Of a stretch of 59,150 nucleotides of DNA, positions 3,351 to 29,277 are shown in pieces. Each line of letters opens with the position of its first letter. Position 1 is the stretch's first letter. The position numbers and the translations under genes were made by a program. This stretch comes from a virus, in the UHGV virus genome UHGV-0115240, one strand, 5' to 3'. A model generated the notes under the pieces. The model saw nothing but the letters and a program-made list of their open reading frames with translations. It was not told where the DNA came from and did no database searches.

Positions 3351-3550
3351 TCGCAATTAAAGCACGATACTTAAAACATGGAGAGCCTATCGGAAAAGAC
3401 TATGTTTTTGCTTGCAATTTCATTCCGAAACTTGGGGATGTTGTAAAAGCCGGGAAAGCAAAGGCAGTTGTGACAGAAGTAGATACATCCGATGGTGCAG
3501 TTTATAAGTACGATGGAAAATTGAGAGTAGCAGAAGAAATGGAGGATTAA
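3347..3550 (+). CDS. Hypothetical small protein.
   Basis: 67-aa ORF with overlapping stop/start. Confidence 0.35.
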   Translation: MIAIKARYLKHGEPIGKDYVFACNFIPKLGDVVKAGKAKAVVTEVDTSDGAVYKYDGKLRVAEEMED

Positions 3551-3763
3551 ATGTCAGAAGAAATCAAAGAATACATGATATTCCTTATGGAATTATTGAA
3601 AGAAAGTATGAAAAAAGAGGGGGCTATTTTTGCGGTCTTAGTTAATCAAGAAGATATTGACAATTCAAGCATCTGCATTTTAGACAGAGAGAGGTTTGTT
3701 AAAGATGGGAAAATTGATGGAATAAAATTCCAATTATGTGAATTGAACAAAGGATTATTGTAG
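3551..3763 (+). CDS. Hypothetical small protein.
   Basis: 70-aa ORF in tightly packed gene order. Confidence 0.35.
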   Translation: MSEEIKEYMIFLMELLKESMKKEGAIFAVLVNQEDIDNSSICILDRERFVKDGKIDGIKFQLCELNKGLL

Positions 3764-4093: not shown

Positions 4094-4909
4094 ATGTCAG
4101 AGAATACACAGGTAGTAACACAGAATGCAGGAACGGTAGCACAGAAACCAAAGACATTTGATATGGCTTTAATGGAGAAACTGGATAGCGTGAATGACGC
4201 ACTTCCGAAAGATTTTAATAAACAGAGATTCGTGCAGAATACTCTTGCGCTGATCCACGATAACCCAAAACTCATGGAGTATAAGCAGTCGGAGATTATG
4301 TCCGGCTTGATGAAAGGTGCTACGCTGGGCTTGGACTTCTTCAACAAAGAAGCATACCTCGTTCCATATGGAAGCCAGTTGAATTATCAGACGGATTATC
4401 GTGGAGCAAAGAAACTCGCAAAAAAGTATTCTATCCGTCCAATCAAGGATATTTACGCAAAACTTGTTCGTGAAGGTGATGAATTCGAAGAAGTTATCGA
4501 AAACGGAGAGCAGGGAATCAACTTCAAACCAAAGGCTTTTAATGATGGAAAGATTATTGGCGCATTTGCAGTGTGCTTATTCGCCGATGGGGGAATGGTA
4601 TACGACACAATGAGCCTTGCAGACTTGGAGAACACAAGAAAATCCAGTAAGGCGAGCAATTCTCCGGCTTGGAAGAATTTCACCGGGGAAATGTATAAAA
4701 AGACAGTGCTGCATAGACTTTGCAAACATATTGAACTTGATTTTGAGAATCCGACTCAGCAGAGTAACTTTATGGCTGGAATGGAAATTGAAACAGATGT
4801 AAGCGAGATTGCACACAGAGAAATCGCAGAAAACGAAAATTCACAGCCATTTGAAGTTGTGGCAGACGTGGAAGCGAAAGAAGAACCAAGTTTCGTGACG
4901 GAGGGATAA
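4094..4909 (+). CDS. recT: RecT-family single-strand annealing recombinase.
   Basis: Segments align with E. coli RecT: GLDFFNKEAYLVPYG, DYRGAKKLAKK, AKLVREGDEFEEV and WKNFTGEMYKKTVLHRL. Confidence 0.9.
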   Translation: MSENTQVVTQNAGTVAQKPKTFDMALMEKLDSVNDALPKDFNKQRFVQNTLALIHDNPKLMEYKQSEIMSGLMKGATLGLDFFNKEAYLVPYGSQLNYQTDYRGAKKLAKKYSIRPIKDIYAKLVREGDEFEEVIENGEQGINFKPKAFNDGKIIGAFAVCLFADGGMVYDTMSLADLENTRKSSKASNSPAWKNFTGEMYKKTVLHRLCKHIELDFENPTQQSNFMAGMEIETDVSEIAHREIAENENSQPFEVVADVEAKEEPSFVTEG

Positions 4910-5091
4910 AGAAGTGAAAGACAGATTAACAACGGAAGAATTATCCGGCGGAAATCATTGTTGCGGCACTTGTCTTTGGTTTAATGGAGATATTAAAGAC
5001 GGAGAACAATTCTGCGATGAACTTGAAACATATGTACACGCTATTGATTTTTGCTGCAATAAGTGGAAAGAAAAATATTAAGGAGATCAAC

Positions 5092-5461
5092 TATGAGAAT
5101 TATATCACAGGATGGAATGCAAGATATTCCGTATGAGAAATTTGTATTTTCAATTACAAAAGACAACAGGATTGTAGCAACGATAGGTTGCACTGCTCCT
5201 CCAACAGAATTGTATATGTCATCAGTTGCAAAATATTCTATACAAGAAAAAGCCATGAAAGCAATGGAAATGTTGAGAAGTGCTTATACAGGGATGCCAG
5301 TTGTTTTTCAAAATATAGAACCTTCAGAAAAGTTTAGGGAATTACTTGAAATAACAAAAACGAACGGAATTATCACAATCACAGATGATAAAAAGTCGAA
5401 AATCGAATATGTCAATAATGTGATTTTTCAGTTTCCGAAAGATGAAGATGTGGAGGTATAG
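5092..5461 (+). CDS. Hypothetical protein.
   Basis: ORF; the start is set at the internal Met that follows AAGGAG. Confidence 0.35.
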
Positions 5462-5464
5462 TAT

Positions 5465-5785
5465 ATGAAATTACATTTTTACATTTTGAAAGGACTATAC
5501 GGAAGTAATCCAAAACTCACATATTCTGAATGTGAAGTGGACGAAAAGCCAAAAACTTATAAACCGATAAGCAGATTCCCGGACGGATATTTTAGTTCGT
5601 TCGTTAAAAAAGAAGATGTTGCGAGTTTAATCGGAAGAAACGTAGTTGTCTTAGAAGAAAAAGATGATAAGAAAGCAAAAGAAATATTTGCACATTATTT
5701 TGATCGAGCCATTGATCTTAAGAAAAGTGAAATAGATAACTTGGAAAAAAAGTTAAAAGCTATTAACGAATTTGGGGATGTATAG
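5465..5785 (+). CDS. Hypothetical protein.
   Basis: 106-aa ORF. Confidence 0.35.
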   Translation: MKLHFYILKGLYGSNPKLTYSECEVDEKPKTYKPISRFPDGYFSSFVKKEDVASLIGRNVVVLEEKDDKKAKEIFAHYFDRAIDLKKSEIDNLEKKLKAINEFGDV

Positions 5786-5786
5786 C

Positions 5787-6085
5787 ATGGACGAAGCAGA
5801 GAAAATAAAGATTATTGCCGAACATTACGGATATGACTCGCAAAGCAGACAGTGCATTGAAGAGATGGCGGAATTGACACAGGCGATCAATAAGTGGTGG
5901 AGAGTTTGCGGAAACGGTCAAAGGACTGAGAAAAGTATTGCAGAGTGCAGAGACAATTTGGTTGAAGAAATTGCGGATGTGCAGATTATGTTATGGCAGA
6001 TGGAATACCTGCTTCTTTCTACACCGGAAGTAAATCAGATGATTACACAGAAATTGAACAGGCAGTTGGAAAGGATTAAGAGAGA

Positions 6086-10504: not shown

Positions 10505-11011
10505 ATGAGCGGTTGGATAAAAATACATAGAGACATTTTGTATCACGAAATATGGAGTGATAAGCCGTTTTCAAAAGGGCAAGCATGGATTGACCTTATT
10601 CTTATGTCGAATCATTCAGACAATAAATGCATGGTCGGGAATAAGGTAGAAGAAATTAAGCGTGGTAGTTTTATCACGTCTGAACTGAAATTGATGGACA
10701 GGTGGGGATGGGGAAGAAAAAAGGTTCAGTTGTTCTTGAAGTTTCTGGAAAGTGAATCCATGATTGTCCGAAGTGCGAACAACAAAAGAACAGCAATAAC
10801 CATTGTGAATTATGATGTTTATCAATATCAGGGAACATCAAAAGAACAACAAAAGAACAACAAAGGAACATCAAAAGCACACAAACAAGAAAGAAAGAAT
10901 GAAAAGAATGTAAGAAATTATAATAATTTCGAGCGTAGGAAGTACGACATGGATTCACTAGAAAGTAAGTTGATGGAGGTGAATATGAATGGCAAAATCA
11001 ATAAAGCATAG
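10505..11011 (+). CDS. Putative replication initiation or replisome-organizer protein with a winged-helix N-terminal domain.
   Basis: WIKIHRDIL...W...PFSKGQAWIDLILMSN...IKRGSFITSELKLMDRWGWGRKKVQLFLKFLE resembles N-terminal domains of phage replication proteins. There is a low-complexity KEQQKNNKG tail. Confidence 0.5.
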   Translation: MSGWIKIHRDILYHEIWSDKPFSKGQAWIDLILMSNHSDNKCMVGNKVEEIKRGSFITSELKLMDRWGWGRKKVQLFLKFLESESMIVRSANNKRTAITIVNYDVYQYQGTSKEQQKNNKGTSKAHKQERKNEKNVRNYNNFERRKYDMDSLESKLMEVNMNGKINKA

Positions 11012-23116: not shown

Positions 23117-23129
23117 TTTAATTTCCTCC

Positions 23130-23312
23130 TTATAATAACTCCGCCAACTGCTGAAGCTGCGAAACTGTTAAGTAGTCCATAACAACTTCGCAATCTCTGT
23201 TATATACTTCGAATTTGTCATTGTGACAGTCGGTCATATTTGCCACATAGTAACCTTTTTTATAAAGCTTTTCTTCTGCTTCTTTTATTTCATTTTTGAA
23301 AAGTTCATTCAT
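23130..23312 (-). CDS. Hypothetical small protein.
   Basis: 60-aa ORF with RBS GGAGG. Confidence 0.4.
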   Translation of the reverse strand: MNELFKNEIKEAEEKLYKKGYYVANMTDCHNDKFEVYNRDCEVVMDYLTVSQLQQLAELL

Positions 23313-23339
23313 TTTTTTAACCTCCGTTTGTTTTATTTG

Positions 23340-23730
23340 TTGATATTATAATACTCTAATATTAGAATAATGTCAATAGGAAAATACTCAAAAATTAGAA
23401 TATTTTAAAATTGACTTTTTTCTGTTTTGGTGGTATTGTTTCTATATATAAATAGAAAGAGGTGAAAGAGTTGATAAAATATAAAATTGATGTTTTTGAC
23501 GAACTAAAAAAACATGGATACAATCAGACACGCATACAAAAAGAAAGGCTTTTACCAGCACAGACGGCGCAGAATATAAAAGCAGGTAAAAGCATCACGT
23601 TAGAAACATTAAATAAGATATGCATCATGTGTAAGATGCAGCCGGGTGACATTGTTGAAGTGATTCCGACAGACGAAGAAAAAATAAAATATTATTAGAA
23701 ATTATGTTGACAATATTCTAATTATAGAAT
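23340..23730. promoter_or_regulatory. Divergent promoter and operator region with reiterated TTAGAATA / TATTCTAA half-sites.
   Basis: Copies at about 23358, 23395 and 23712-23726 flank the XRE gene. Confidence 0.45.
23462..23698 (+). CDS. XRE-family HTH regulator (Cro/CI-like).
   Basis: QTRIQKERLLPAQTAQNIKAGKSITLETLNKIC is HTH-like. Confidence 0.55.
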   Translation: MKELIKYKIDVFDELKKHGYNQTRIQKERLLPAQTAQNIKAGKSITLETLNKICIMCKMQPGDIVEVIPTDEEKIKYY

Positions 23731-23780
23731 ATAATATAATTGTCGAAAGGCAATAACCCAACAGGGAGAAAGGAGAACAC

Positions 23781-24454: not shown

Positions 24455-25297
24455 ATGGGTCCATATATAAGCCTTATTAATGCATATGATGCTTTAATCG
24501 AGAGTGGAGTGGAGATGTGCCCGATCGCACATACTTATATGACGGTGCATATTGCTGTATTGTTAAACCTAAAAGGGGAATTCCTTTGCGCAAAAATCCC
24601 GGATATTAAAGGGGAGCTTGTAAGAGTACCTTGTACGGATGAGTCTGGGCGCAGAACGAGCGGAGATTATCCGCACTTGTTGCATGATAATTTATGCTAT
24701 GTTGCTCCTTTTGGATCAAAACCAGACAGACACGAAGCATATATATCACAGCTCAGAGAATATACAAAAGCAAAGCCCGAAGACATGTATGCTACCGCGA
24801 TATATAATTACGTTAAAAACGGGGATATTTTGCATGATTTAAAAGATATAATCTCAAACTTTGACCTAAAAATGCCATTAGATAAAGCAAATGTTGCTTT
24901 TGCGGTATATGGATTAGATAACGACGGCACAGATCTATATTGGACGGAATACTATTTATCCACTCTACATAAAAACGGAATTTGTGCTGTGACTGGTGAG
25001 CCTGATTATATTCCGTCAGCTTATCCGGCTTGTATTATATCCCCATCGGGAAAAGAAAGATTTTTTTTAAAAGACTGTGGGGTAGGCTATGTTGCATCAC
25101 AAAAAATCATACACGCAATACAATACTGGGCGTATGGAGCCAAAAACGCAGCAAGAGTTAAAACGGAATCGTATATACAAGACTACATGCACGGGAAAAA
25201 AACAGAAGATGAGCTTAAACAGTGGATTGATGAGAGGTATCCGGGAAAATGGGGCGGTTTTATAAATATATTAAAAAAAGGAGAAGCAGAAAATTAG
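24455..25297 (+). CDS. Hypothetical 280-aa protein.
   Basis: ORF with RBS AAGGAGGGG. I recognise no motif. Confidence 0.4.
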   Translation: MGPYISLINAYDALIESGVEMCPIAHTYMTVHIAVLLNLKGEFLCAKIPDIKGELVRVPCTDESGRRTSGDYPHLLHDNLCYVAPFGSKPDRHEAYISQLREYTKAKPEDMYATAIYNYVKNGDILHDLKDIISNFDLKMPLDKANVAFAVYGLDNDGTDLYWTEYYLSTLHKNGICAVTGEPDYIPSAYPACIISPSGKERFFLKDCGVGYVASQKIIHAIQYWAYGAKNAARVKTESYIQDYMHGKKTEDELKQWIDERYPGKWGGFINILKKGEAEN

Positions 25298-25315: not shown

Positions 25316-25346
25316 TAAGCCGGTTAAATTCCGGCTTTTTCTTTTG
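25316..25346 (+). terminator. Rho-independent terminator.
   Basis: AAGCCGGttaaatTCCGGCTTTTTCTTTT. Confidence 0.6.
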
Positions 25347-25440
25347 TTTATTTTTAAATTATCTGACAATACTTTAGGGACAGAAAGTAAAATGCTATAA
25401 ACGCCGTATTTAAGGCGAGCAATTTACACACAATTAAGAA

Positions 25441-25530
25441 CAGGGAACAACTAAGGAACAGCAAAAGGAACAACGCAAACCCTTATAAACACTGGGCTTA
25501 CAAGCATTTAGGGAACAGCAAAAGGAACAG
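25441..25530. repeat. Iteron-like cluster of GGAACA motifs, about 7 copies including two GGAACAGCAAAAGGAACA units, followed by the alternating GC tract CGCGTGCGCGCGCGG.
   Basis: Counted directly from the sequence. Confidence 0.6.
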
Positions 25531-25853
25531 CCTACGCGTGCGCGCGCGGTAAGAATATATATAATAATACCTAGAAAAGAAATAAAAGAAAGAAAATATA
25601 AAAAGAAAATCGCCATCAATTAAACTTTCGGATTCTTGACTTTATCAATCAAATTGTCAAACAATTATTTTCCGCTTGACAATTATATTTTACGGGTGTA
25701 TATTAATGGCATAGAAACAGACGGCTTTTAATTTATAAAATTAAATACAATTAAATCCGCCCAATTCCCGGCGGTGTGAGAATGGATTCGGGAGATCCGC
25801 AACTATATGTTGTGGGTCTCTTTTTTATTATTAAGTGTTAGGAGGCGCAGAAG

Positions 25854-26474
25854 ATGGAGAGAGTACAGGATGCAGAGCAGACGGTAGAAGTATTCGAGAA
25901 TGATATAGATTTATATTTAAAATTATTCTGTGAAGAACAGAATATTGAAGATCTAAAAGCAGAAAGCCAAAGCGTATGGAATGCTGCCTTGATGTATGTT
26001 AAGCGCCATGTATTCCCGACATCCGATACACTTAAGTTAAAAAATAATATTATAAATAATAATAGTATTATGGACAGTACATATAATGCATATAATTATG
26101 ATTTGGTAGATAATGTATGTGATTATTATATATATCTTTGTATGAGATATGATAAAGAAGTATCAGCTATAGGGTTTAGTTTATTAACCGGAATAGATAG
26201 ATATACAATAGCAACTTGGAGAGATGGAGGGAATAAACTAAGTACGAAGAGTTCAGACATCGGCAAAAAGATTTATGATTACCGAGAGGAAAGCCTTTCT
26301 AATAAGCTAGTAACTGGCAAGCAGAACCCGGTAGGAGTGTTAGGAGTTCTTAATAGGCATTACGCTTGGAATCTTCCGGGAGTGAGCAAGGAACGAACCA
26401 GCGAAAGAGCCCTAACAGCTTCGGAATTGCCAAAACTCGGAGAGATAAAGCAGATCGGAAGCGAAAAAGATTGA
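25854..26474 (+). CDS. Hypothetical protein with an HTH-like segment. A TerS-like or regulatory role is possible.
   Basis: GFSLLTGIDRYTIATW is HTH-like. It is preceded by a leader hairpin plus T-run (25790-25830). Confidence 0.35.
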   Translation: MERVQDAEQTVEVFENDIDLYLKLFCEEQNIEDLKAESQSVWNAALMYVKRHVFPTSDTLKLKNNIINNNSIMDSTYNAYNYDLVDNVCDYYIYLCMRYDKEVSAIGFSLLTGIDRYTIATWRDGGNKLSTKSSDIGKKIYDYREESLSNKLVTGKQNPVGVLGVLNRHYAWNLPGVSKERTSERALTASELPKLGEIKQIGSEKD

Positions 26475-27248: not shown

Positions 27249-27371
27249 GAGATTATTCTGTAAGCATAAACATGTTGAGCCATTATACACATACCTGGAA
27301 CAGCAGGAAGACGGATCGTGGATAACAAGGCATGTTTAGAAGTGCATAGATTGTGGAAAGGAGATTTATTA

Positions 27372-27533
27372 ATGATTAAAGGATTTTTGTTAGCGTTTAA
27401 TGTAATTTTGTTTGCACTGTTCTTGATCGGAATGATTTTTGGCTTAAAAACCAAAGAAACAGGAATGGGCTTGTTAAGTGGATCGGTCGCATTGATCATT
27501 GCATTAAATTCATTATTCATTTTAAATTCATAA
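27372..27533 (+). CDS. Small membrane protein.
   Basis: RBS GGAAAGGAG. Two hydrophobic helices. Confidence 0.4.
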   Translation: MIKGFLLAFNVILFALFLIGMIFGLKTKETGMGLLSGSVALIIALNSLFILNS

Positions 27534-27537
27534 GATT

Positions 27538-28587
27538 TTGTGAGGTGGCGGAAAAGGTAAACGCGTAGTAGTGCATATACAGGCATGTATAGAATATTAG
27601 GGTACGGTTGTAGATGACACCGAGTAAAGTCAAGACGAGAAGTTATGTCCCTAGCTTCATGTGTGGTGCAAATCCACACCCTCACAATCGCCGCAGTTTT
27701 TCTTTTTATTGTTTCATCCTTTCTCCCCATAGCGGAATGCTGTTAAGAGCTGTCAAAGGCTCGTGGGGATTAGTCAAGGAAAAGACATGAAACCCGCTTG
27801 CTAGAGCGTATAGGTAGCAGTGCAAAAGTCCGACTACTGCTTGAGGACAATAAAAAAAGAGCAGCGTCAGGGTTGCGAGTAACACGAGAGTCCGAAGAAA
27901 AATAGAAAACTCGAAAGAAATTCATTATCTGCCACTCCCGACAATTAAGCGAGGGTGCATACTAGTTGCAGAAAATGATCTTGTCTCAAACTAAAAGCCT
28001 TACAAGCGGTAATATTGGCAGTCGAATGACAGGTGTTGAGAAAACCCTATGAAGTCCTCATAGACATAAAATGGACAACCGCTCAACCGAACGCGGTATA
28101 TAAAGACATAAGGACTATACGAGAAATAGTCTGGTTTCTCTGTGTACGTTGCAGAATACATGGCAGAGAGTAAAAAGATTCAGCAAAAATCCACTCATGG
28201 TCGGTTTGAAGTCCTGCAATGCTATAAAACCGATAAAAAACTTAATCCGTAGGAGATGAGACAAGTTTCGGTGATTGCAGTAGTCCGAATACTATGGATA
28301 TTCGCTGGAAGTAATTGAGTGACTGCTTGGTGGTCGAGGGTGGTTTATAAAGTGAATTAGTGTCAAGCATGGCACGATAAAAACGAGTGAAAGCCGGGAA
28401 GACCGGCTTAAGGGAGAAAGGTCACTGTTGGTTGTGTGTCGGCGGTCTGTAAAACCGTTCCCAAGTGGTAAACACCGAAAGTTCAATTCTTTCTTCTCCC
28501 ATTTCATTTATCCAAATGGATATAATCCGGCTGGCGCAAGGTGGATTGTATAGACAAAAAGGATATCTAAGAATTGCGCCATCACGA
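27538..28587 (+). ncRNA. Candidate large structured non-coding RNA (GOLLD/ROOL-like) immediately upstream of a tRNA.
   Basis: About 1.05 kb with no credible ORF in a phage that is otherwise densely coding. GC is elevated against the surroundings. There are many local hairpins: GTGTGGtgcaaatCCACAC, GCCGGgaagaCCGGC, GTCCgactactgcttgaGGAC and TGCTAgagcgtataggTAGCA. There is also long-range complementarity, GTGAGG (27541) with CCTCAC (27679). It is adjacent to a tRNA, as is typical for GOLLD/ROOL. The strand is inferred from the tRNA. Confidence 0.5.
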
Positions 28588-28658
28588 AGCCCTATGGTGT
28601 AATGGCAGCACATGAGACTTTGACTCTCACGGAATAGGTTCAAATCCTGTTAGGGTTG
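28588..28658 (+). tRNA. tRNA-Gln (anticodon UUG).
   Basis: Manual fold. Acceptor AGCCCTA/TAGGGTT, U8, D-arm GTG..CAC with a TAATGGCAG loop, anticodon stem TGAGA/TCTCA with loop CTTTGAC (anticodon TTG), T-arm ATAGG-TTCAAAT-CCTGT, discriminator G. CCA is not encoded. Confidence 0.75.
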
Positions 28659-28788
28659 TGCGTCCTGTCCATTACCGGATATACGAGCGCATGAGGTCAC
28701 TGCCTCGGTGAAAAAATGAATGCTCGGATAGGAGCAACTGAAAATCCTAGGAAGTTGTTCTTATCCGGGAAACCTCACAGAAAGGGGA

Positions 28789-29277
28789 ATGGATATGTGC
28801 GAATTTTGTGAAAATGAAAAGATAATTGAATTTGATAATGGAAAAGAAACATGGAATATTCAAAATACCGAAAAATGTTATGAAATGCTTTATGCAAACC
28901 ATGAGACTGGAAAATCGAAAGGAATCACAATTCGATATTGCCCTATCTGTGGAAGAAATTTAACTGATGAAGAAAATAAAGTAAATGATACGATTAGAAA
29001 AGAAAACATTCGATTAAAAAATGATTTAGATACATTTATAAACTATCTTCTACCAAGAGCAACGATACAGGCAGGAGAGGAAATCAAAAAAGGAAATTAC
29101 AATTTAGTAACCATTGTGACAAATGGAGAAAGATGTGAGCAGAAAGAACTTCTTGATAAAATCTCAAAATTAGAAGACAGACATCAATCCGATTGCATTA
29201 AAATCAATCAACTCCAAACTACGATTGATGTGCTTGTGGACAAGTTGGCGAAATTACGGGAGGTTCACGAGCTATGA
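28789..29277 (+). CDS. Zinc-ribbon plus coiled-coil hypothetical protein.
   Basis: CEFCEN...CPICGR. Confidence 0.4.
   Translation: MDMCEFCENEKIIEFDNGKETWNIQNTEKCYEMLYANHETGKSKGITIRYCPICGRNLTDEENKVNDTIRKENIRLKNDLDTFINYLLPRATIQAGEEIKKGNYNLVTIVTNGERCEQKELLDKISKLEDRHQSDCIKINQLQTTIDVLVDKLAKLREVHEL

What the first reader, a model, noticed from the sequence alone, without database searches (positions are those of the whole stretch)
27538..28658. A 1.05-kb ORF-free, structured, GC-enriched segment abutting a tRNA-Gln: candidate giant ornate ncRNA (GOLLD/ROOL class)
The phage is otherwise coding-dense, with overlapping stops and starts everywhere. This segment has no plausible ORF; the only ones are antisense fragments of 71 and 73 aa. 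Its GC is visibly higher than the genome's. It is packed with perfect local hairpins and at least one long-range helix. It ends 1 nt before a complete tRNA-Gln(UUG). GOLLD and ROOL RNAs are large, highly structured RNAs found almost only in phages and prophages of Firmicutes. They are typically adjacent to tRNA genes, and their function is unknown, although recent cryo-EM work shows RNA-only multimeric cages. The architecture here fits that class, or a new one.
Basis: partly seen in the sequence, partly recalled or inferred. Interest (0 to 1): 0.85.

Follow-up and report, generated by a model that had tools for sequence, protein, structure and literature searches.

The report
New structured RNAs beside phage tRNAs
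The gene-free stretch is real non-coding RNA, but it is not GOLLD or ROOL: it is a chain of RNA modules in a gut-phage tRNA cluster, and its best-supported module is a roughly 175-base, doubly knotted RNA family that Rfam does not contain.

Summary
The observation largely holds. Positions 27534-28788 are the longest ORF-free stretch in the window and have high GC (0.43 against 0.37).

No GOLLD, ROOL, HEARO, OLE or raiA match appears, even at E<=10. Three close relatives carry a true ROOL (about 340 bits) just after the same tRNA-Gln, alongside the RNA studied here. So this RNA is not ROOL.

The segment is modular:
- M0, a tRNA-like element with a hypervariable insert.
- M1, a three-way junction (27712-27775).
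- M2 and M3, two small pseudoknots.
- M4, a conserved 176-nt core (28188-28363).
- A 3' hairpin, then tRNA-Tyr and tRNA-Gln.

M4 has seven helices, including a kissing-loop pair and a second pseudoknot. On 28 sequences, 92.5% of cells pair (26-45% when partners are slid), and 37 of 44 pairs change on both sides. I found 117 instances (67 distinct sequences, 24 clusters) in gut phage and metagenome contigs. They usually lie upstream of the large terminase gene. Many abut a tRNA or a degenerate tRNA-like element.

Best reading: a new family of tRNA-island RNAs, probably released by RNase P and RNase Z. Its function is unknown.

The parts
27540..27686 (+). M0: a tRNA-like element. It has an acceptor stem (GUGAGG/CCUCAC), a D-arm with GG, a T-arm (GUGUGG-UGCAAAU-CCACAC) and discriminator A. 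The anticodon arm is replaced by a 93-nt, three-hairpin insert.
   Evidence: Acceptor, D-arm and T-arm are conserved in relatives, while the insert is completely different in six lineages. The D-stem covaries four ways: GCG/CGC, CUG/CAG, GAG/CUC and CCG/CGG. ARAGORN does not call it as a tRNA, an intron-containing tRNA or a tmRNA, and Rfam does not call it either.
27687..27711 (+). U-rich spacer between M0 and M1
   Evidence: Read directly from the sequence. M1 starts 27-33 nt after a tRNA or tRNA-like 3' end in the window, L001, L051 and L013.
27712..27775 (+). M1: pyrimidine tract UCCUUUCUCCCC followed by a 47-nt three-way junction. The closing stem is UCCCCA/UGGGGA, with hairpins AGC-GGAAU-GCU and GAGCU-GUCAAAG-GGCUC.
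   Evidence: Alignment A6 and model R2. The window scores 87.5 bits. M1 is also found in Dulem virus 39, L005, L010, L011, L013, L036-L038, L051, L179 and L204/L219/L223. Compensatory variants are CCACA/UGUGG (L038), CCCCG/CGGGG (L051) and GGCC/GGCC (L011).
27776..27993 (+). Variable region containing M2, a hairpin-type pseudoknot. The stem is AGCAGU (27816-27821) with ACUGCU (27836-27841). Loop GUCC (27828-27831) pairs with GGAC (27845-27848).
   Evidence: Close relatives replace this region with unrelated sequence (L004 group), and L179 lacks it. Part of it matches Dulem virus 39. There the loop and its partner change together, GCCC with GGGC.
27994..28078 (+). M3: a GUC-GAAU-GAC hairpin, then hairpin CUAUGA-AGUCC-UCAUAG, an A-rich linker and GGAC that pairs with the loop (pseudoknot).
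   Evidence: Alignment A8 and pair counts. The main stem pairs in 85% of cells and three of its pairs change on both sides. The loop-tail helix pairs in 97% of cells. GCCC/GGGC in L013 and GUUC/GGAC in L028 keep the pairing.
28079..28187 (+). Lineage-specific insertion of three hairpins
   Evidence: Present only in the window, L037 and L045. L038 joins 28078 directly to 28188.
28188..28363 (+). M4: the conserved core, a doubly pseudoknotted RNA. Helices are P1 28191-96/28338-43, P2 28201-07/28227-33, Pc 28245-52/28292-99, Pd 28268-71/28285-88, P5 28321-26/28330-35, the kissing-loop helix Pk 28214-20/28274-80 (P2 loop with Pd loop) and P6 28301-06/28351-56, which crosses P1.
   Evidence: Model R1 scores the window at 188 bits. 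Pair counts on 15 sequences are and on 28 sequences. The latter gives 92.5% paired against 26-45% when slid, 37 of 44 pairs with changes on both sides, and 0 of 500 shuffles reaching the observed values. P6 was not in the model, yet pairs in 91% of cells, with 6 of 7 pairs covarying. The kissing loop keeps 5-9 bp in all 28 sequences through five different sequence pairs.
28360..28411 (+). 3' tail: a small hairpin (GUGUCA-AGCA-UGGCAC) and a GC-rich hairpin, AAGCCGG-GAAGA-CCGGCUU (28391-28409). The tail ends 2 nt before tRNA-Tyr.
   Evidence: Conserved in relatives with compensatory changes: AAGCAGG/CCUGCUU in the L004 group and AACCCGG/CCGGGUU in MT835739. No U-tract follows, so it is not a terminator.
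28412..28501 (+). tRNA-Tyr(GUA), class II with a long variable arm.
   Evidence: ARAGORN; the best Rfam clan match is weak (30 bits). It is conserved with covariation in MT835739. It is a cassette that the L004-group relatives lack.
28502..28587 (+). Spacer belonging to the tRNA-Tyr cassette
   Evidence: Absent together with tRNA-Tyr in relatives. Partly conserved in MT835739.
28588..28658 (+). tRNA-Gln(UUG)
   Evidence: ARAGORN and Rfam RF00005 at 60.6 bits.
28659..28788 (+). Conserved non-coding stretch leading to the next gene. The 28658/28659 junction is where relatives carry a ROOL RNA plus tRNA-Lys cassette.
   Evidence: nhmmer finds the 'post' module in 19 relatives. ROOL is at L045 559-1114, L179 4453-5033 and L037 9230-9810, between tRNA-Gln and tRNA-Lys.

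Best explanation
The segment is the non-coding RNA part of a phage tRNA island, on the + strand. It is built from exchangeable structured-RNA cassettes, not from one GOLLD or ROOL RNA.

The conserved functional unit is M4 (28188-28363). M4 belongs to a widespread family of roughly 175-nt RNAs in gut Clostridia/Lachnospiraceae phages. The family is absent from Rfam 15 and from the literature I could search.

M4 folds into a compact core: two hairpins whose loops kiss, enclosed by two crossing long-range helices. The junction nucleotides are strongly conserved.

In this phage, M4 is preceded by optional 5' modules: the M1 three-way junction, the M2 and M3 pseudoknots, and a lineage-specific insertion.

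The whole block (about 27687-28411, about 725 nt) is bracketed by a degenerate tRNA-like element (M0) and by tRNA-Tyr.

Inferred mechanism: the island is co-transcribed with the flanking + strand genes. The host tRNA-processing enzymes then cut at the tRNA and tRNA-like 'punctuation'. RNase P cuts at the 5' end of tRNA-Tyr, leaving the GC hairpin as a protective 3' end. RNase Z or an equivalent cuts after M0. This would release a stable structured RNA that acts in trans around the time the packaging and late genes are expressed, as proposed for ROOL and GOLLD.

Shown: the RNA is non-coding; the M1, M3 and M4 structures; the family and its distribution; tRNA adjacency; the distinction from ROOL.

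Inferred: co-transcription, RNase P/Z maturation, and whether M1-M4 stay together as one RNA.

Unknown: the molecular target.
For: Non-coding:
- No ORF matches any protein family.
- Indels between relatives are 1 and 4 nt inside conserved blocks.
- Many G-U pairs in the helices fix the + strand as the RNA strand.

Structure:
- M4 pair statistics, kissing-loop covariation, M1 and M3.

Family:
- R1 hits occur in the window, in Blautia phage Montmirail (151 bits), in Dulem virus 39 (93 bits) and in dozens of IMG/VR contigs.
- They also occur in two GTDB MAGs (one Lachnospiraceae, one Eubacteriales) and in 86 of 93 metagenome loci, many of them labelled human gut.
- In total there are 117 instances, 67 distinct sequences and 24 clusters at 90% identity.

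Modularity.

tRNA punctuation:
- A tRNA on the same strand starts -3 to +5 nt after M4 in six loci, and 41-55 nt after it in the window family and the Montmirail clade.
- A strict T-arm motif lies at tRNA-consistent distance downstream in 13 of 23 clusters. It ends 8-9 nt before M4 in 5 of 23. Background density is 0.063 per kb.
- L230 reads tRNA-M4-tRNA-M4-tRNA.
- Several flanking elements are tRNA-like but have aberrant anticodon arms. Like M0, they keep only the acceptor, D and T parts.

Not ROOL or GOLLD.

Position: TerL lies 1.2-3.7 kb downstream in nine loci.
Against: - There is no expression or end-mapping data, so co-transcription and RNase P/Z cuts are inferred from geometry only.
- About 40% of M4 clusters have no recognisable tRNA within 150 nt downstream.
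- In one clade, M4 sits 63-224 nt after a regulator gene and an extended -10 promoter, and is followed by a terminator-like hairpin. That fits a cis-acting leader better.
- In the window, no tRNA-like element separates M1-M3 from M4, so I cannot say whether one RNA or several is made.
- The strongly conserved unpaired nucleotides would also suit a ribozyme or a ligand- or protein-binding RNA.
- Unnamed 'candidate structured RNAs' predicted from IMG/VR (PMC10690425) could already include pieces of this. I could not check, because no supplement text is held.
Confidence: 0.6

Rival explanations
1. One giant RNA. The block from about 27687 to 28411 (about 725 nt, M1 to M4 plus the tail) is a single functional molecule of the GOLLD/ROOL kind. 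It would have a conserved 3' core and a variable 5' half, and might assemble into an RNA-only multimer, with the kissing loop or the GUCC/GGAC contacts acting between molecules.
For: - The same module order, M1-M2-M3-M4-tRNA, is found in the distantly related Dulem virus 39, where TerL is 88% identical but the RNA aligns only in blocks.
- M1 is fused directly to M4 in L179.
- The block is bracketed by M0 and tRNA-Tyr, with no tRNA-like element inside it.
- The layout of a conserved 3' part and variable 5' part, and the tRNA-island context, match the description of GOLLD (PMC12286853).
- GUCC is over-represented: 6 observed against 1.7 expected, P about 0.007.
Against: - M4 occurs without M1 in most clades, and M1 occurs without M4 in L011.
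- In L204, a T-arm that ends 9 nt before M4 separates it from M1.
- I found no covarying long-range helix linking the 5' modules to M4.
- The middle region is replaced wholesale between close relatives.
Confidence: 0.2
2. Cis-acting leader. M4 is part of the leader region upstream of the packaging and late genes and acts in cis on RNA polymerase or on the transcript. It could give put-like processive antitermination, a riboswitch-like attenuator, or a 5' stabiliser. Under this reading the tRNAs are merely neighbours.
For: - In L057, L065, L209, L214, L220, L221 and Montmirail, a phrog_36 sigma-region-4-like regulator gene ends 63-224 nt upstream of M4.
- Between that gene and M4 lie direct repeats and an extended -10 box, TGYTATAGT or TATAAT.
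- L065, L057 and L209 have terminator-like hairpins just after M4. In L065 and L057, a 14-nt copy of the terminator's 5' arm lies upstream of M4, which allows an alternative pairing.
- TerL is 1.2-3.7 kb downstream in nine loci.
Against: - The window has no promoter-like site near M4. Its candidate promoter and leader terminator lie 2.4 kb upstream, at 25677-25830.
- The precise abutment to tRNAs of many identities, and the two M4 copies interleaved with tRNAs in L230, are not expected of a promoter-proximal leader.
- There is no conserved expression platform.
Confidence: 0.13
3. New ribozyme. M4 is a self-cleaving or otherwise catalytic RNA that processes the tRNA island transcript, for example by cutting at its own boundary with the tRNA.
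For: - M4 is a complex double pseudoknot with many invariant unpaired nucleotides.
- Related islands are rich in small ribozymes and ribozyme-associated motifs: pistol in L204, hammerhead II in L010, and RAGATH-21 and RAGATH-27 in L003 and L001.
- The boundary with tRNAs is fixed, with a 4-nt AUUU-type linker.
Against: - No similarity to any ribozyme family in Rfam.
- The AUUU linker with U at position -1 is what an ordinary RNase P substrate looks like (general knowledge of RNase P).
- At 175 nt, M4 is large for a self-cleaving ribozyme.
- Nothing computational can show catalysis.
Confidence: 0.1
4. No function. The segment is debris: decayed tRNA genes, recombination scars, or a frameshifted protein gene.
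For: M0 and several flanking elements are degenerate tRNAs. Large parts of the segment (27776-27993 and 28079-28187) are lineage-specific.
Against: - Extensive compensatory change in M1, M3 and M4 across 24 sequence clusters.
- Blocks are conserved between phages whose intervening sequence has diverged beyond alignment.
- No ORF family hits, and indels break the reading frame.
Confidence: 0.03

Closest known systems
ROOL RNA (Rfam RF03087)
   Same: A phage or prophage RNA found in tRNA islands, with pseudoknots and no known function or protein partner (PMC5737381, PMC12286853). In relatives L045, L037 and L179, a true ROOL lies in the same island. In L045 its model match overlaps the last bases of the same tRNA-Gln (tRNA 496-566, ROOL 559-1114).
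   Different: No ROOL model match in the window at E<=10. ROOL is a separate 574-position cassette that coexists with M1-M4 in those relatives. M4 is about 175 nt and has its own fold.
GOLLD RNA (Rfam RF01998)
   Same: A conserved 3' region plus a less conserved 5' region. It occurs near or around tRNAs in phages (PMC12286853).
   Different: No model match. The conserved core here is far smaller and often occurs on its own. No evidence of multimeric cages.
RAGATH and other orphan phage RNA motifs (for example RAGATH-21 and RAGATH-27)
   Same: Small structured RNAs of unknown function that occupy equivalent slots next to tRNAs in related phages: L003 2851-2935 and L001 2419-2502.
   Different: Different sequences and structures. 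M4 is larger and doubly pseudoknotted, and none of these models hits the window.
tRNA-punctuated RNA maturation (mitochondrial transcripts; MALAT1 with its tRNA-like mascRNA) - from general knowledge
   Same: A tRNA or tRNA-like fold next to a non-tRNA RNA serves as the RNase P/Z cutting signal that defines its ends. M0 and the other degenerate tRNA-likes keep only the acceptor, D and T parts that these enzymes recognise.
   Different: Processing has not been shown here. The system is a bacteriophage one, and genuine decoding tRNAs are used as well.
HK022 put RNA and the lambda late-leader arrangement - from general knowledge
   Same: In one clade, M4 lies just downstream of an activator-type promoter and upstream of a terminator and of the long operon that holds the packaging genes.
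   Different: There is no sequence or structure similarity and no test of antitermination. This arrangement is not present in the window.

Membership tests
ROOL (RF03087) | Match to the Rfam covariance model (about 574 positions, multistem junctions and pseudoknots) | tested here: not met
   No hit in the window at gathering score or at E<=10. The same tool finds ROOL at 338-341 bits in relatives L045, L179 and L037, so the negative result is informative.
ROOL (RF03087) | Located in phage or prophage DNA near tRNA genes | tested here: met
   tRNA-Tyr and tRNA-Gln are adjacent and TerL lies 2.3 kb downstream. This is context only and does not establish membership.
GOLLD (RF01998) | Match to the Rfam covariance model, in particular the universally conserved 3' region | tested here: not met
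   No hit at E<=10 in 27300-28900, nor at gathering score in the window.
GOLLD (RF01998) | Conserved 3' half, variable 5' half, and tRNAs adjacent or embedded | tested here: met
   M4 is conserved, M1-M3 are variable or optional, and tRNAs flank the block. This is a resemblance of layout only.
GOLLD/ROOL | Assembly into RNA-only multimeric cages | not testable with these tools
   Needs cryo-EM or SEC-MALS on transcripts.
HEARO, OLE, raiA, group I/II introns, RNase P RNA, T-box, and known self-cleaving ribozymes | Match to the respective Rfam models | tested here: not met
   At E<=10 there are no such hits. Only the tRNA matches and three chance-level matches appear (cHP, mir-628, Ms_IGR-8).
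tRNA (for M0, 27540-27686) | Cloverleaf with a 7-nt anticodon loop, detectable by ARAGORN or RF00005 | tested here: not met
   ARAGORN gives nothing in default mode, intron-tolerant mode, lowered-threshold mode or tmRNA mode. There is no RF00005 hit. The acceptor, D-arm and T-arm are present and covary, so the element is tRNA-like but not a tRNA.
M4 family (defined here, model R1) | Helices P1, P2, Pc, Pd and P5, plus the kissing loop and the P6 pseudoknot, with conserved junctions (AAAAACUUWAUC, GUGAUUGC, GGAAGU, GUUUAUAAGG) | tested here: met
   The window scores 188 bits at 28188-28363. All helices are present.

The most novel reading that the evidence does not exclude
M4 is a new class of functional RNA with sophisticated biochemistry. 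It could be a new ribozyme, an RNA that modifies RNA polymerase or the tRNA-processing machinery, or, together with M1-M3, a third class of ornate phage RNA alongside GOLLD and ROOL. It would be matured by tRNA punctuation using deliberately retained, anticodon-less tRNA-like elements. It is common in human-gut Lachnospiraceae phages, and one cultured phage carries it.
Probability: 0.25. Interest if true: 0.85.

Novelty: new variant of a known kind. Interest (0 to 1): 0.62.

Why it matters
Large structured phage RNAs in tRNA islands, such as GOLLD and ROOL, are a long-standing puzzle. Their structures are now known, but their functions are not.

This locus adds a distinct and much smaller family of about 175 nt that should be tractable to study. 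Its fold is unusually well supported by covariation. It shares the niche with ROOL and sometimes sits in the same island.

It also points to a simple, testable maturation rule: cutting at flanking tRNAs or degenerate tRNA-like 'punctuation marks'. The same rule may apply to ROOL and GOLLD.

The family occurs in a cultured phage, Blautia phage Montmirail with host Blautia coccoides. Expression, processing, oligomerisation, catalysis and knockout experiments are therefore feasible straight away.

Tried and rejected
- **Known RNA families.** Rfam at gathering score and at E<=10 gave nothing but tRNAs in the window.
- **M0 as a tRNA with an intron, or a tmRNA.** ARAGORN with -i, -m and lowered thresholds found nothing.
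- **Hammerhead, hairpin, twister or RNase P-like readings of the recurring AGUCC motif.** By inspection, the order of the core strands does not fit, and no Rfam model supports them. The resemblance of GAAGUCC to the GAAAGUCC of RNase P helix P4 does not extend into the helix.
- **T-box reading of GGGUGGU.** Other clades have GGUAGU in the same place, and there is no T-box hit.
- **Promoter or terminator inside the segment.** None was found.
- **Protein coding.** No Pfam or PHROG match for ten ORFs.
- **Target-site duplications flanking M4 as a sign of mobility.** Seen only in L065 and L057; 22 other loci show nothing above chance.
- **A protein consistently linked to M4.** I found only TerL downstream, a TerS-like protein upstream, and a phrog_36 regulator in one clade. 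No candidate partner emerged.
- **Literature.** Full-text search for four diagnostic sequence motifs, entered as six DNA and RNA query strings, returned nothing. The IMG/VR candidate-RNA catalogue (PMC10690425) has no searchable supplement.
- **Genome scan.** My first genome contigs pattern was too loose. Of the 120 rows returned, only two are real (L177, L179), so host range in GTDB is under-sampled.
Full report
**1. The observation**

Positions 27534-28788 lie between a 71-aa membrane-like ORF (27318-27533) and a 162-aa zinc-ribbon-like ORF (28789-29277).
- Positions 27731-28788 are the longest stretch in the 59-kb window with no ORF of 80 aa or more on either strand (1058 nt; the next longest is 664 nt).
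- GC is 0.433 against 0.371, which puts the segment in the top 2.4% of equal-sized windows.
Neither they nor eight other ORFs in the segment match Pfam or PHROGs.
- Thermodynamic folding is only modestly better than shuffles and is similar on both strands. Energy alone therefore decides nothing.

**2. Known families**

Rfam 15 finds only the tRNAs, both at gathering score over the whole window and at E<=10 over 27300-28900. There is no GOLLD, ROOL, HEARO, OLE, raiA, intron, RNase P, T-box or ribozyme match.

The negative result for ROOL is informative. The same search on relatives finds ROOL at 338-341 bits in L045, L179 and L037. In those phages the order is M4, tRNA(s) including the same tRNA-Gln, ROOL, tRNA-Lys, and then the sequence that in the window starts at 28659. 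The window simply lacks the ROOL plus tRNA-Lys cassette. The RNA under study is therefore a different entity that can sit beside ROOL.

**3. Comparative anatomy**

The phage is a relative of Dulem virus 39, whose TerL is 88% identical at the amino-acid level.

BLAST, nhmmer and pattern scans of IMG/VR show that the segment is a mosaic.
- Relatives at about 84% identity share 27304-27771 and 28190-28412.
- The same relatives replace 27771-28190 with unrelated sequence and lack the tRNA-Tyr cassette.
- L038 joins 28078 to 28188. L010 lacks 27978-28148. In L179, M1 is fused directly to M4.
- Dulem virus 39 keeps the order tRNA-Ser, M1, M2, M3, M4, tRNA-Ile. Only the structured blocks are alignable.

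**4. The modules**

*M0 (27540-27686)* has a tRNA-type acceptor stem, D-arm and T-arm. In place of an anticodon arm it carries a 93-nt insert.
- Six lineages carry six unrelated inserts.
- The D-stem covaries four ways.
- It is not detected as a tRNA, an intron-containing tRNA or a tmRNA.

*M1 (27712-27775)* is a three-way junction preceded by UCCUUUCUCCCC. It has compensatory variants, and model R2 detects it in about 14 loci.

*M2 and M3* are hairpins whose GUCC loops pair with a downstream GGAC.
- The pairing is kept as GCCC/GGGC in Dulem 39 (M2) and in L013 (M3).
- GUCC is over-represented in the segment: 6 against 1.7 expected.

*M4 (28188-28363)* is the core.
- A hand-derived structure was tested on a MAFFT alignment of 15 sequences. 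It gave 85% pairing against 25-45% when partners were slid, and 20 of 44 pairs changed on both sides.
- Model R1, built with the nested helices only, gave a 28-sequence alignment. On it, 92.5% of cells pair (26-45% when slid), 37 of 44 pairs change on both sides, and no shuffle out of 500 reaches the observed values.
- Helix P6 crosses P1 and was not in the model, yet it pairs in 91% of cells, and six of its seven pairs covary.
- The kissing loop between the P2 and Pd hairpins is kept at 5-9 bp in all 28 sequences. It does so through five different sequence pairs: CUGCAA/UUGCAG, UUGCA/UGCAA, UCGCAR/UUGCGA, CCGCAA/UUGCGG and UCACUU/AAGUGA.
- Frequent G-U pairs fix the + strand as the RNA strand.
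- A conserved GC hairpin (28391-28409), with compensatory variants, ends 2 nt before tRNA-Tyr.

**5. Distribution and context of M4**

R1 finds the family in many places.
- Blautia phage Montmirail and Dulem virus 39.
- More than 40 IMG/VR contigs.
- Two GTDB MAGs, one Lachnospiraceae and one Eubacteriales.
- 86 of 93 metagenome loci, many labelled human gut, several on contigs of 56-58 kb.

In total there are 117 instances, 67 distinct sequences and 24 clusters at 90% identity.

TerL lies 1.2-3.7 kb downstream in nine loci.

Adjacency to tRNAs is striking.
- A same-strand tRNA begins -3 to +5 nt after M4 in six loci, with a short AUUU-type linker. In the window family and the Montmirail clade it begins 41-55 nt after M4.
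- A strict T-arm motif occurs at tRNA-consistent distance downstream in 13 of 23 clusters. It ends 8-9 nt before M4 in 5 of 23. The background is 0.063 per kb.
- L230 reads tRNA, M4, tRNA, M4, tRNA.
- Several flanking elements fold like tRNAs but have aberrant anticodon arms. This echoes M0.

In another clade, M4 follows a phrog_36 regulator gene, direct repeats and an extended -10 box. It is sometimes followed by a terminator-like hairpin. The window has nothing comparable nearby.

**6. Interpretation**

The best-supported reading is a tRNA-island array of RNA cassettes. M4 is an autonomous new family, and M1-M3 are optional 5' modules.

In this phage, the block between M0 and tRNA-Tyr (about 725 nt) is probably cut out by RNase P and RNase Z. 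That step is inferred from geometry, and from the fact that the degenerate tRNA-likes keep exactly the acceptor, D and T elements those enzymes recognise. Whether the block stays as one RNA is open.

Function is unknown. I rank the possibilities as follows:
1. A trans-acting stable RNA.
2. A single GOLLD-like giant RNA.
3. A cis-acting leader upstream of the packaging and late genes.
4. A new ribozyme.

'Debris' and 'coding' are effectively excluded for M1, M3 and M4.

**7. Novelty**

There is no Rfam 15 family and no full-text hit for the diagnostic motifs. A catalogue of unnamed IMG/VR candidate RNAs (PMC10690425) could overlap with this family, but I could not check it.

The kind of element, orphan structured RNAs in phage tRNA islands, is known (PMC5737381, PMC12286853). 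This family and its fold appear to be new.

Noticed in passing
window 24455-25297 (+): A 280-aa phage protein matches Pfam Cas_Csd1 (the N-terminal part of Cas8c) at 71.7 bits, above the curated cut-off. It covers only profile positions 1-194 of 559. A truncated Cas8c homologue in a phage could be an anti-CRISPR decoy. An intrinsic terminator follows the gene at about 25318-25345.
   Followed up: partly
window 25350-25853: A 556-nt ORF-free control region upstream of a TerS-like gene (25854-26474; weak GP3_package match). It contains iterated GGAACA-type repeats (25430-25530, including a 21-nt direct repeat), a good TTGACA-17-TATATT promoter (25677-25705) and a leader hairpin followed by a U-run (about 25790-25830) just before the ribosome-binding site. 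This looks like a terminator-controlled start of the operon that holds the packaging genes.
   Followed up: partly
L045 559-1114; L179 4453-5033; L037 9230-9810: True ROOL RNAs (338-341 bits) are inserted, together with a tRNA-Lys, between the tRNA-Gln and the sequence homologous to window 28659 onwards. The window lacks this cassette.
   Followed up: yes
L233, L073, L177 (5' of M4); L221/L220/L215/L236/L213/L024 and L028/L031 (3' of M4); L023: tRNA-like elements with non-canonical anticodon loops (4-6 nt, or ARAGORN 'tRNA-???') directly flank M4. They may be processing signals rather than decoding tRNAs.
   Followed up: partly
L065 and L057, flanks of M4: The 14-nt sequence AAGAUGGCAGCAGG lies 18 nt upstream of M4 and again 3 nt downstream. 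The downstream copy forms the 5' arm of a terminator-like hairpin. This is either an insertion scar or an antiterminator/terminator switch that encloses M4. In L057, the one C-to-U difference I inspected within the upstream GAUGG(C/U)AGCAG stretch would still allow the alternative pairing through a G-U pair; the two L057 copies match exactly over only 7 nt.
   Followed up: partly
L001 (Dulem virus 39) 3399-3667 and 4846-6051: A 260-nt insertion carrying a 71-aa ORF sits between M3 and M4 and is flanked by the direct repeat AATGACCGT. An RtcB RNA ligase gene lies 1 kb downstream of the island, which suggests tRNA repair.
   Followed up: no
window 27717-27724 and all M1 copies except L179: The single-stranded tract UCCUUUCU in front of M1 is identical to the last 8 nt of the Bacillus-type 16S rRNA 3' end, the anti-Shine-Dalgarno region (from my own knowledge). 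It could pair with purine-rich ribosome-binding sites such as AGAAAGG at 28777-28783. This is speculative.
   Followed up: no
L003 2851-2935; L001 2419-2502; L204 739-804; L010 7964-8029; L051 and L204: Related phages carry RAGATH-21, RAGATH-27, a pistol ribozyme, a type II hammerhead and int-alpA RNAs in or near their tRNA islands.
   Followed up: no
window 23117-23780: The second-largest ORF-free stretch (664 nt) lies at a strand switch, where GC skew changes sign around 21.5-23.5 kb. It contains AT-rich inverted repeats and a palindrome (23384-23424, 23707-23753), so it is probably a divergent regulatory region.
   Followed up: no
L037 insert of M0 (about 10760-10790, minus strand): The hypervariable insert of the M0 tRNA-like element in L037 itself contains a canonical T-arm (UUGGUUCAAAUCCAA). 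That is a tRNA fragment nested inside the tRNA-like scaffold.
   Followed up: no
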